NCBI RefSeq assembly: GCF_000026545.1
Contig: NC_011601.1
DNA: 64,000 nucleotides
Direction: 5' to 3' (one strand)
DNA from: Escherichia coli O127:H6 str. E2348/69
Lineage (GTDB): Bacteria > Pseudomonadota > Gammaproteobacteria > Enterobacterales > Enterobacteriaceae
Part shown: piece by piece, positions 46,701-49,700 of the stretch
How positions within the stretch are numbered: position 1 is the first letter of the stretch
Layout of the letters: each line of letters opens with the position of its first letter
Position numbers: made by a program

Positions 46701-49700
46701 TCGGCCATATCTTCGGCTTCAGACTCGCTGAGCGCGTAACTGTTTGCGCAAACGGCCATCAGGCTGCCGAATAACACTGTTCTGAAAAACGTCTTCATTG
46801 CTTCTACCAGGGGCTTAAAGAAGATAAACGTTAGCACACTGCGAGCGAGGCGACGACCATTATTGTCGATTAAATTGTGTCTGCGACTTGACCTTCCCGT
46901 AAGGGGAAGGACTATGCTCAACGTTTGATTTTGTTTCGCCTGCTTAAGAATAAGGAAATAACTATGCAACGTCGTGATTTCTTGAAATATTCCGTCGCGC
47001 TGGGTGTGGCTTCAGCCTTGCCGCTGTGGAGCCGCGCAGTATTTGCGGCGGAGCGTCCAACGTTACCAATCCCTGATTTGCTCACGACCGATGCCCGTAA
47101 TCGCATTCAGTTAACTATTGGCGCAGGTCAGTCCACCTTTGGCGGGAAAACCGCAACTACCTGGGGCTATAACGGCAATCTGCTGGGGCCGGCGGTGAAA
47201 TTACAGCGCGGCAAAGCGGTAACGGTTGATATCTACAACCAACTGACGGAAGAGACGACGTTGCACTGGCACGGGCTGGAAGTACCGGGTGAAGTGGACG
47301 GCGGCCCGCAGGGAATTATTCCGTCAGGTGGCAAGCGCTCGGTGACGTTGAACGTTGATCAACCTGCCGCTACCTGCTGGTTCCATCCACATCAACATGG
47401 CAAGACCGGGCGACAGGTGGCGATGGGGCTGGCTGGTTTGGTGGTGATTGAAGATGACGAGATCCTGAAATTAATGCTGCCAAAACAGTGGGGTATTGAT
47501 GATGTCCCGGTGATTGTTCAGGATAAAAAATTTAACGCTGACGGGCAGATTGATTATCAACTGGATGTGATGACCGCCGCTGTGGGTTGGTTTGGCGATA
47601 CGTTGCTGACCAACGGTGCAATCTACCCGCAACACGCTGCCCCGCGTGGCTGGCTGCGCCTGCGTTTGCTCAATGGCTGTAATGCCCGCTCGCTCAATTT
47701 CGCCACCAGCGACAATCGCCCGCTTTATGTGATTGCCAGCGACGGCGGTCTGCTACCTGAACCGGTGAAGGTGAACGAGCTGCCAGTGCTGATGGGCGAG
47801 CGTTTTGAAGTGCTGGTGGAGGTTAACGACAACAAACCCTTTGACCTGGTGACGCTGCCGGTCAGCCAGATGGGGATGGCGATTGCGCCGTTTGACAAGC
47901 CGCATCCGGTAATGCGGATTCAGCCGATTGCCATTAGTGCCTCTGGTGCTTTGCCAGACACATTAAGTAGCCAGCCTGCGTTACCTTCGCTGGAAGGGCT
48001 GACGGTACGCAAGCTGCAACTTTCTATGGACCCAATGCTCGATATGATGGGGATGCAGATGCTGATGGAGAAATATGGCGATCAGGCGATGGCCGGGATG
48101 GATCACAGCCAGATGATGGGCCATATGGGGCACGGCAATATGAATCATATGAACCACAGCGGGAAGTTTGATTTCCACCATGCCAACAAAATCAACGGTC
48201 AGGCGTTTGATATGAATAAGCCGATGTTTGCGGCGGCGAAAGGGCAGTACGAACGTTGGGTTATCTCTGGCGTGGGCGACATGATGCTGCATCCGTTCCA
48301 TATCCACGGTACGCAGTTCCGTATCTTGTCAGAAAATGGCAAACCGCCAGCGACGCATCGCGCAGGCTGGAAAGATACCGTTAAGGTAGAAGGTAATGTC
48401 AGCGAAGTGCTGGTGAAGTTTAATCACGATGCACCGAAAGAACATGCTTATATGGCGCACTGCCATCTGCTGGAGCATGAAGATACGGGGATGATGTTAG
48501 GGTTTACGGTATAAAAAGACCGTATTCGGAAATATGCCCGGATCTCTCCGGGCATTATGGTTACTTCACATCATCCGGCAGCGCATAAGCCACAATATAG
48601 TCGCCCATCTTCGTACCAAATGAACCGTGACCGCCTGCGGAGATCACCACATACTGCTTGCCATTCACTTCATAGGTCATTGGCGTAGCCTGACCACCCG
48701 CTGGTAAACGACCCTGCCACAGTTTTTCACCGTTGCTCATGTTGTAAGCGCGCAGGTAGTTATCTGCCGTAGCGGCGATAAACAGCACGTTACCCGCCGT
48801 GGAGATTGGCCCGCCAAGCATCGGCATACCCATATTGAACGGCACCGGTACAGGCATCGGGAATGGCATACTGTCCTGTGGCGTACCAATACGTTTCTTC
48901 CACACCACTTCATTGGTTTTCAGATCCAATGCTGAGATATAGCCCCATGCTGGCTGTTTACATGGCAGACCAAACGGTGAGAGGAACGGGTTGAGCGTGA
49001 CACCATACGGTACACCGTACTGCGGCTGGATGCCGGATTCCGTACCCGTGCCTTTGGCATCTTTCGGCTGTTCCATCGGGTTGCCTGGACCGCGTGGGAT
49101 CAGTTTCGAAACAAACGGCAGTGCCATTGGGTTGGCAATCGCCACTTCACGATTCGGATCAACGGAAATCCCGCCCCATTCGAACATCCCCAGGTTACCC
49201 GGGAAGACCAGCGTACCCTGTTCAGATGGCGGGGTGAAAATGCCTTCATAGCGCATCTGGTGGAACATCACGCGGCACACCAACTGGTCAAACATGGTGG
49301 CTCCCCACATATCCGCACCGCTCAAATCTTTCGTCGGACGGAAGCTCAGTTCAGAAAACGGTTGAGTAGGGGTAACGTAATCACCTTTCGCTGCGCCTTG
49401 CGGCACCGGTTTTTCCGGTGCCGGAACCACCAGTTCGCCATTACGACGATCGAGCACAAAAATGTTGCCGGTTTTCGCCGGAGCATAAATGACCGGCACT
49501 TTCTGACCATTAACGGTGATGTCCGCCAGCGTCGGCTGTGCCGGAAGATCCATATCCCACAGGTCGTGGTGAACGGTCTGGTAGCTCCACGCCAGTTTCC
49601 CGGTAGTGGCATTCAGCGCCAGAATCGAGCTGGCATAACGTTCCTGTTCCGGTGTGCGGTTACCACCCCAAATATCTGGCGTGGTGACGCCCATCGGCAG

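What the first reader, a model, noticed from the sequence alone, without database searches (positions are those of the whole stretch)
48515..48560. Very compact convergent intergenic spacers, possibly lacking REP elements present in K-12
Several convergent gene pairs are separated only by a single hairpin: cueO/gcd 46 bp, hpt/can 40 bp, ampE/aroP 42 bp. From memory some of these spacers are longer in K-12 because of REP/BIME copies. If so, this strain differs from K-12 mainly by presence or absence of REPs rather than by gene content. The comparison is memory-based and unverified.
Basis: inference. Interest (0 to 1): 0.2.

Follow-up and report, generated by a model that had tools for sequence, protein, structure and literature searches.

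The report
REP-free cueO–gcd terminator spacer
The 46-bp gap between cueO and gcd in this E. coli E2348/69 sequence holds only a conserved terminator-like hairpin, whereas K-12 carries an extra 158-bp repeat element (BIME-1) there; this is an ordinary, well-known kind of strain-to-strain difference present in about half of all E. coli.

Summary
cueO/gcd (46 bp), hpt/can (40 bp) and ampE/aroP (42 bp) are compact convergent spacers, each with one strong hairpin.

The window is E. coli E2348/69 (O127:H6). In a full alignment to K-12 MG1655 89.9-154.2 kb, 44 of 55 gene junctions have identical length, including hpt/can and ampE/aroP. Only cueO/gcd of the three named spacers differs: K-12 has 201 bp. 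Its extra 158 bp are a BIME-1 (y REP, linker with an IHF consensus, z1 REP) plus locus-specific flanks.

The two other large indels are a REP copy-number difference at mutT/yacG and an ERIC element (not a REP) at aceF/lpd. Gene content is identical, but 2,589 substitutions far outnumber these indels.

Among 5,426 complete E. coli genomes, 2,373 have the compact junction and 2,741 a K-12-like filled one. Minor alleles of 77, 193, 256 and 264 bp exist.

Salmonella and Citrobacter share the hairpin-then-gcd-stop layout. The compact form is therefore most likely ancestral and the BIME a later insertion into gcd's 3' UTR.

BIME presence/absence polymorphism is already described, so interest is low.

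The parts
46964..48514 (+). cueO (multicopper oxidase) coding sequence; stop TAA at 48512-48514
   Evidence: RefSeq annotation of the identical E2348/69 locus and of K-12; coordinates mapped through the global alignment
48515..48560 (.). 46-bp convergent cueO/gcd spacer with no REP: the empty-site allele of a BIME-1 presence/absence polymorphism
   Evidence: the same junction is found in 2,373 of 5,426 complete E. coli genomes
48534..48555 (.). Hairpin with a 9-bp stem and 4-nt loop (ATGCCCGGA TCTC TCCGGGCAT); inferred shared bidirectional terminator / 3'-end stabiliser for cueO and gcd
   Evidence: Fold z-scores -3.6 (+) and -4.1 (-). The stem is almost invariant in E. albertii, Salmonella arizonae and two Citrobacter species, and the top pair covaries AU/CG/UA. 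Not called by the simple terminator scan.
48505..48524 (.). Weaker 6-bp stem (TACGGT...ACCGTA) bracketing the cueO stop codon
48556..48560 (.). TATGG junction between the hairpin and the gcd stop. In K-12, 158 bp replace TGG (48558-48560). Homologous to TAATGG in Salmonella arizonae.
48561..50951 (-). gcd (PQQ-dependent glucose dehydrogenase) coding sequence; stop-codon complement TTA at 48561-48563
51694..51733 (.). 40-bp hpt/can convergent spacer, same length in K-12; hairpin core at 51704-51724
30135..30176 (.). 42-bp ampE/aroP convergent spacer, same length in K-12; hairpin with an 11-bp stem at 30142-30168
21550..21645 (.). mutT/yacG spacer: two REPs (z-type 21550-21576 on +, y 21592-21624 on -) plus a 16-bp y fragment. 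K-12 has four REPs here (119 bp more).
37735..37764 (.). About 30 bp in the aceF/lpd intergenic region that take the place of K-12's 148-bp stretch (127735-127882) containing an ERIC/IRU element

Best explanation
The 46-bp cueO/gcd spacer is the REP-free, ancestral-type allele of a common insertion polymorphism. It holds one conserved GC-rich hairpin, 19 nt after the cueO stop and 5 nt before the gcd stop. By inference, this hairpin ends and/or protects the 3' ends of both convergent transcripts.

In K-12 and about half of E. coli, a 158-bp block lies between the hairpin and the gcd stop and replaces TGG. The block is a BIME-1 (inverted y REP, about 35-bp L linker with a perfect IHF consensus, z1 REP) plus about 22 bp and 37 bp of locus-specific DNA. 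It leaves cueO's 3' end unchanged and lengthens gcd's 3' UTR before the hairpin from 5 nt to about 163 nt, adding REP stem-loops.

Shown: the anatomy, the allele frequencies and the outgroup layouts. Inferred: the direction of change (insertion rather than deletion) and the terminator/stabiliser function.
For: Anatomy and K-12 comparison.

The K-12 insert is a dispersed repeat. The gene flanks are single copy, but the filled allele hits a median of 18 places per genome. Other K-12 copies align only to the REP-linker-REP core. There are sub-threshold Rfam hits to the REP-derived naRNA4 model in K-12 and none in E2348/69. y and z1 REP matches are. The structure fits the BIME-1 definition in PMC3333891.

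Frequencies: 2,373 genomes compact and 2,741 filled, out of 5,426.

Polarity: the 8-9 nt between the stem and the gcd stop are CATTATGG (window), CATTAATGG (S. arizonae), CAATATGA (C. amalonaticus) and CATAAGCG (C. sedlakii). The filled allele lacks TGG at both junctions, so excising it could not recreate the compact sequence.

Hairpin conservation.

Published context: the number of BIMEs at a given locus varies between strains, and clade A (K-12) has about 546 REPs against about 395 in most others (PMC3333891). REPs between convergent genes are linked to termination and stabilisation (bioRxiv 10.64898/2026.03.23.713779).
Against: The filled allele also occurs in E. albertii and in two other diverged Escherichia lineages (L021, L075). 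A single insertion therefore has to be old, with both alleles persisting or moving by recombination.

The insert carries about 60 bp that are not part of the repeat family, which a clean transposition does not explain.

Deletions do happen at this site: the 77-bp allele is one.

The hairpin lacks a good U-tract and was not called by the terminator scan. No transcript-end data were examined.
Confidence: 0.8

Rival explanations
1. The compact spacer is derived. An ancestor of E. coli had the K-12-like BIME-bearing spacer, and the E2348/69-type allele arose by deletion (replication slippage or RAYT/TnpA_REP-mediated excision) that removed the BIME and its flanks.
For: Filled alleles occur in E. 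albertii, L021 and L075 as well as in half of E. coli. The 77-bp allele shows that deletion between GGCATGAA repeats does occur here. TnpA_REP cleaves and recombines BIMEs in vitro (PMC3333891).
Against: The compact junction matches Salmonella and Citrobacter in spacing and sequence. TGG is absent from the filled allele, so a deletion would have had to recreate it by chance (about 1 in 64 for three bases). There is no microhomology at the would-be breakpoints that yields the observed junction. A compact allele is also present in a 95%-identical Escherichia lineage (E69).
Confidence: 0.15
2. The short spacer is an assembly artefact: a collapsed or dropped repeat in the source genome.
For: Short palindromic repeats can be mis-assembled.
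Against: Three independent E2348/69 / O127:H6 assemblies are 100% identical over 24 kb, and 2,373 complete genomes share the junction.
Confidence: 0.01
3. The near 50:50 compact/filled polymorphism is kept by selection on gcd (or cueO) expression rather than being neutral repeat turnover.
For: Both alleles are at intermediate frequency, both occur on diverged flanking haplotypes and in other Escherichia lineages, and REP-containing convergent pairs show higher expression genome-wide.
Against: There is no expression or fitness data. The genome collection is heavily biased by clinical sampling. Recombination plus population structure can give the same pattern. The aceF/lpd ERIC shows a similar intermediate frequency.
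Confidence: 0.05

Closest known systems
BIME-1 / RIP / RIB elements (REP clusters with an IHF site) of E. coli
   Same: The K-12 allele of this spacer has an inverted y REP and a z1 REP, each with the GTAG tetranucleotide. [quoted passage not shown] The element lies at the 3' ends of convergent genes, as described for BIME-1 (PMC3333891).
   Different: The window itself has none of this: it is the empty site. The K-12 copy is also bounded by about 60 bp that are not shared with other copies.
BIME presence/absence and copy-number polymorphism among E. coli strains (Bachellier et al. 1997 Genetics, cited in PMC3333891; Ton-Hoang et al. 2012)
   Same: A REP cluster is present in some strains and absent or in different copy number in others at the same intergenic locus. 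K-12 (clade A) is REP-rich.
   Different: Nothing in kind. This work only adds allele counts for this locus (46, 77, 193, 201, 256 and 264 bp, and a 949-bp array in another Escherichia species).
Bidirectional intrinsic terminators between convergent genes
   Same: A single GC-rich hairpin sits in a spacer of 50 bp or less between convergent genes, is conserved across genera, and is shared by both transcripts.
   Different: The U-tracts are weak on both strands, and termination was not measured.
ERIC / IRU elements
   Same: The K-12-specific DNA at aceF/lpd matches the ERIC1R and ERIC2 primer sites 20/22 and 21/22, and two other K-12 copies were found.
   Different: It is not a REP. It concerns a different spacer from the one flagged and is absent from the window.

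Membership tests
REP/BIME (window spacer 48515-48560) | Contains at least one REP: a 20-40-nt imperfect palindrome with the GTAG/CTAC tetranucleotide, of type y, z1 or z2 | tested here: not met
   No REP match in the spacer. No Rfam hit on the identical E2348/69 locus. The hairpin lacks GTAG/CTAC.
BIME-1 (K-12 allele of the same spacer) | One y REP and one z1 REP in inverted orientation | tested here: met
   y at K-12 138699-138727 (-) and z1 at 138763-138796 (+, 97% to consensus). The short-y query was taken from this locus, so that match is circular. Independent support comes from the z1 consensus, alignment to other K-12 copies and the naRNA4 Rfam hit.
BIME-1 (K-12 allele) | Long conserved L linker, frequently with an IHF binding site | tested here: met
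   The 35-bp linker contains AATCAATGGATTG on the - strand, a 13/13 match to WATCAANNNNTTR. Part of the linker aligns to the yaaX/yaaA copy. IHF binding itself was not tested.
BIME-1 (K-12 allele) | Occurs as a single copy at a locus, not in tandem arrays | tested here: met
   Single in K-12. Not met in Escherichia sp. MOD1-EC7003, which has 8.0 tandem 107-bp units, nor in the 256/264-bp alleles, which have an extra z1 REP.
Intrinsic (Rho-independent) terminator (window hairpin 48534-48555) | GC-rich stem-loop | tested here: met
   9-bp stem with 6 G-C pairs; about -15 kcal/mol in the consensus fold.
Intrinsic (Rho-independent) terminator (window hairpin) | U-rich tract immediately 3' of the stem | tested here: inconclusive
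   + strand UAUGGUUACUU and - strand AUAUUUCCGAAU; below the scan's criterion of 5 T in 8.
Intrinsic (Rho-independent) terminator (window hairpin) | Transcripts end at the hairpin in vivo | not testable with these tools
   Needs Term-seq or 3'-RACE.
ERIC/IRU (K-12 aceF/lpd insert; absent from window) | Central conserved inverted repeat matching the ERIC consensus, dispersed in the genome | tested here: met
   ERIC1R 20/22 and ERIC2 21/22, adjacent to each other. Two further K-12 copies at 79-87% identity. No hit in the window. The primer sequences were confirmed in 233 papers.

The most novel reading that the evidence does not exclude
The cueO-gcd site carries an old polymorphism that spans Escherichia lineages: an ancestral compact terminator versus a BIME-1-bearing gcd 3' UTR. 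It would be kept at intermediate frequency because the REPs tune gcd (or cueO) mRNA termination or stability, making it a natural experiment for REP function.
Probability: 0.05. Interest if true: 0.4.

Novelty: already known. Interest (0 to 1): 0.1.

Why it matters
It matters little. It is a clean, quantified example of a known phenomenon: REP/BIME and ERIC elements account for nearly all of the intergenic length variation between E. coli strains in a conserved core region. Its practical uses are limited to two. It could serve as a naturally occurring isogenic-like contrast (about 44% compact, about 51% filled) for testing what a BIME-1 does to a convergent gene pair. It also shows that K-12 intergenic lengths should not be assumed for other phylogroups.

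Tried and rejected
- A fuzzy-regex REP scan timed out and was replaced by blastn-short.
- My first automated spacer extraction mis-called E. albertii as a 46-bp REP-less spacer. Reading the sequence showed that it carries the BIME next to a truncated gcd, so E. albertii is not used as evidence for the compact state.
- I considered that the 22-bp and 37-bp flanks of the K-12 insert might be part of the canonical BIME-1 unit (the 'A' and 'B' motifs, recalled from memory). In 272 kb of K-12, no other copy extends into the 22-bp left flank or the last 27 bp of the right flank. That reading is therefore not supported, though the sample is small.
- I considered simple cut-and-paste insertion or precise excision. 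Both are rejected because TGG is missing from the filled allele.
- Bachellier et al. 1997 (PMC1207841) is not held in the library. No paper mentioning cueO, gcd, intergenic and REP together was found.
- The Rfam search found no known RNA family in the window's spacer.

Full report
**Source and observation**

The window is E. coli E2348/69 (O127:H6). It is 100% identical to three assemblies over window 40000-64000 and over the finding itself. It is collinear with K-12 MG1655 89,884-154,175.

- cueO ends with TAA at 48512-48514, and gcd's stop (TTA on the + strand) is at 48561-48563. The spacer is therefore 48515-48560, exactly 46 bp.
- hpt/can is 40 bp (51694-51733) and ampE/aroP is 42 bp (30135-30176).
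- Each spacer folds into one dominant hairpin on both strands, with z-scores from -3.6 to -5.2 against dinucleotide shuffles.

A global alignment gives 31 indels. A table of 55 gene junctions shows 44 with identical length.

- hpt/can (40 bp) and ampE/aroP (42 bp) are the same length in K-12.
- cueO/gcd is 201 bp in K-12 (138,634-138,834), so here the recollection is right.
- Only three junctions differ by more than 100 bp, and the window is the shorter in each:

| Junction | Window minus K-12 (bp) |
|---|---|
| mutT/yacG | -119 |
| aceF/lpd | -117 |
| cueO/gcd | -155 |

These three account for 391 of the 429 K-12-extra bases. Gene content is the same. The alignment also contains 2,589 substitutions (1.4-3.6% per 8 kb, and 16.9% over the last 8 kb, which holds the yad fimbrial genes). 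'Differs mainly by REPs' is therefore true only of length variation.

**What K-12 has at cueO/gcd**

Both strains share cueO, the first 43 bp of the spacer and the hairpin. After ...GGGCATTA, K-12 has 158 bp where the window has TGG, and then both continue with TTACTTCAC (gcd). The 158 bp consist of:

- a 22-bp flank;
- an inverted y REP (138,699-138,727);
- a 35-bp linker containing AATCAATGGATTG, a perfect match to the IHF consensus WATCAANNNNTTR (established knowledge);
- a z1 REP (138,763-138,796);
- a 37-bp flank that holds a small hairpin.

This fits the published definition of BIME-1: y plus z1, a single copy, and a long L linker that often carries an IHF site (PMC3333891).

Evidence independent of my recalled consensus sequences:
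- The filled allele hits a median of 18 places per genome, whereas the gene flanks are single copy.
- Other K-12 copies align to the REP-linker-REP core.
- Rfam's REP-derived naRNA4 model gives a sub-threshold hit in K-12 and nothing in E2348/69.

The outer flanks (the 22-bp left flank and the last 27 bp next to gcd) matched nothing else in 272 kb of K-12. Their origin is unexplained.

**The other two large indels**

- **mutT/yacG:** K-12 has four REPs (z2, y, z2, y). The window has two plus a 16-bp fragment. This is a copy-number difference of the kind described for tandem BIMEs.
- **aceF/lpd:** the K-12-specific 148 bp carry an ERIC/IRU element, not a REP. They match the standard ERIC1R and ERIC2 primer sites 20/22 and 21/22, and two more copies lie in K-12. 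The window has about 30 unrelated bp there. This site is also polymorphic: 3,433 of 5,426 genomes are K-12-like.

**Population frequencies at cueO/gcd**

| Allele | Genomes (of 5,426) | Share | Source |
|---|---|---|---|
| Window's exact compact junction | 2,373 | 43.7% | |
| At least 80% of the K-12 filled allele | 2,741 | 50.5% | |
| Other | about 312 | about 6% | by difference |

- Compact alleles occur in E2348/69, ST131/O25:H4, O111 and O103. Filled alleles occur in K-12, B strains and O157:H7.
- Minor alleles are 193 bp (linker variant) and 256 and 264 bp (an extra z1 REP).
- The 77-bp allele has no REP. Its junction falls on a GGCATGAA repeat present both after the hairpin and after the z1 REP. 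It shares flank SNPs and the Gcd protein accession with a 264-bp-allele strain. It is therefore a secondary deletion.

There are thus two routes to a REP-free spacer, and the window has the commoner one.

**Direction of change**

One pattern scan of species-representative genomes recovered the region from 76 loci.

- Salmonella arizonae has ATGCCCGGC-ATGC-GCCGGGCAT followed by TAATGG and then gcd's stop.
- C. amalonaticus has ...ACCGGGCAATATGA|TTA, and C. sedlakii has ...CCCGGGCATAAGCG|TTA.
- The window's ...CCGGGCATTATGG|TTA has the same layout, the same spacing as C. amalonaticus (8 nt), and differs from Salmonella only by one missing A.
- The filled allele has TGG at neither junction, so excision could not recreate the compact form.

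I conclude that the compact layout is ancestral and the BIME-bearing block a later insertion (confidence about 0.8).

The caveat is that filled alleles also exist in E. albertii (next to a largely deleted gcd), in L021 (flanks 93% identical, spacer itself diverged) and in Escherichia sp. MOD1-EC7003. A compact allele is present in E69, whose flanks are 95% identical. Both states are therefore old in the genus, or have moved by homologous recombination.

**Likely function**

The 9-bp stem is nearly invariant from Escherichia to Citrobacter, and its top pair covaries AU/CG/UA. That argues for a conserved role. The position fits a shared bidirectional terminator or 3'-end protecting stem-loop. 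This is an inference: the U-tracts are weak, the simple scan does not call it, and no transcript data were used.

The BIME sits on the gcd side of the hairpin. The polymorphism therefore leaves cueO's 3' end untouched and changes gcd's 3' UTR before the hairpin from 5 nt to about 163 nt, adding two REP stem-loops and an IHF site. A 2026 preprint reports that REPs act as context-dependent terminators and mRNA stabilisers, that about 30% of K-12 convergent spacers contain one, and that REP positions vary between strains. Any effect at this locus is untested.

**Novelty**

Strain-to-strain variation in BIME number at a given locus has been documented since Bachellier et al. 1997 (cited in PMC3333891) and again for 44 genomes by Ton-Hoang et al. 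2012. They also found clade A (K-12) to be REP-rich, with about 546 REPs against about 395. The present case is an instance of that, between two long-published genomes. It is ordinary and already explained, and interest is low.

Noticed in passing
window 21160-21558 (mutT) and 21550-21576 (REP): mutT's stop codon lies inside the first REP. K-12's TAG is TAT here, so the ORF runs three codons further into the REP: 132 aa ending KRVYAG, against 129 aa in K-12.
   Followed up: partly
window 37735-37764 (aceF/lpd intergenic): K-12 has an ERIC/IRU element here (core at K-12 127,799-127,837), and the window has about 30 unrelated bp instead. 3,433 of 5,426 genomes are K-12-like. O157:H7 ATCC 43894 lacks the ERIC, whereas the O157:H7 genomes sampled at cueO/gcd carry the BIME, so the two polymorphisms assort independently.
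   Followed up: partly
window 57446-57517 (inside rpnC/yadD): A 72-bp in-frame expansion of a Gly/Ile/Glu/Lys-rich repeat (GIEKG-like) relative to K-12. The C-terminus and the rpnC/panC spacer also differ (+8 bp).
   Followed up: no
window 59513-64000 (yadC to htrE): The yad fimbrial genes are only 77-90% identical to K-12, with many small in-frame indels in yadC. This is far more divergent than the rest of the window (1.4-3.6%).
   Followed up: no
L075 2667-3524 (Escherichia sp. MOD1-EC7003, cueO-gcd spacer): The spacer is 949 bp and holds 8.0 tandem copies of a 107-bp y-L-z1 unit at 96% identity, although BIME-1 is described as a single-copy element.
   Followed up: partly
L015 (E. albertii NBRC 107761), downstream of cueO: The BIME is present, but gcd is reduced to a remnant of about 220 bp: its 3' end is missing and most of the gene is deleted, with hpt following within about 300 bp.
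   Followed up: partly
E. coli genome hits H88 and H89: In some genomes the K-12-type spacer matches only from the end of the y REP onward. This suggests a large insertion (possibly an IS) at the REP, in line with REPs being IS targets (PMC1525189).
   Followed up: no
L001 678-699 and 809-835 (K-12 spacer flanks): The locus-specific DNA on either side of the K-12 BIME shares a GCAA(A)TCTG direct repeat and matches nothing else in 272 kb of K-12. Its origin is unknown.
   Followed up: partly
L037, L056, L063, L072, L073, L083 (Enterobacter, Citrobacter, Kluyvera): In several genera the cueO-gcd interval is 670-1000 bp. In at least some it reads as containing a small ORF with a signal-peptide-like start, or in L037 a toxin-antitoxin-like pair. 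The spacer is therefore a recurrent insertion site beyond REPs.
   Followed up: no
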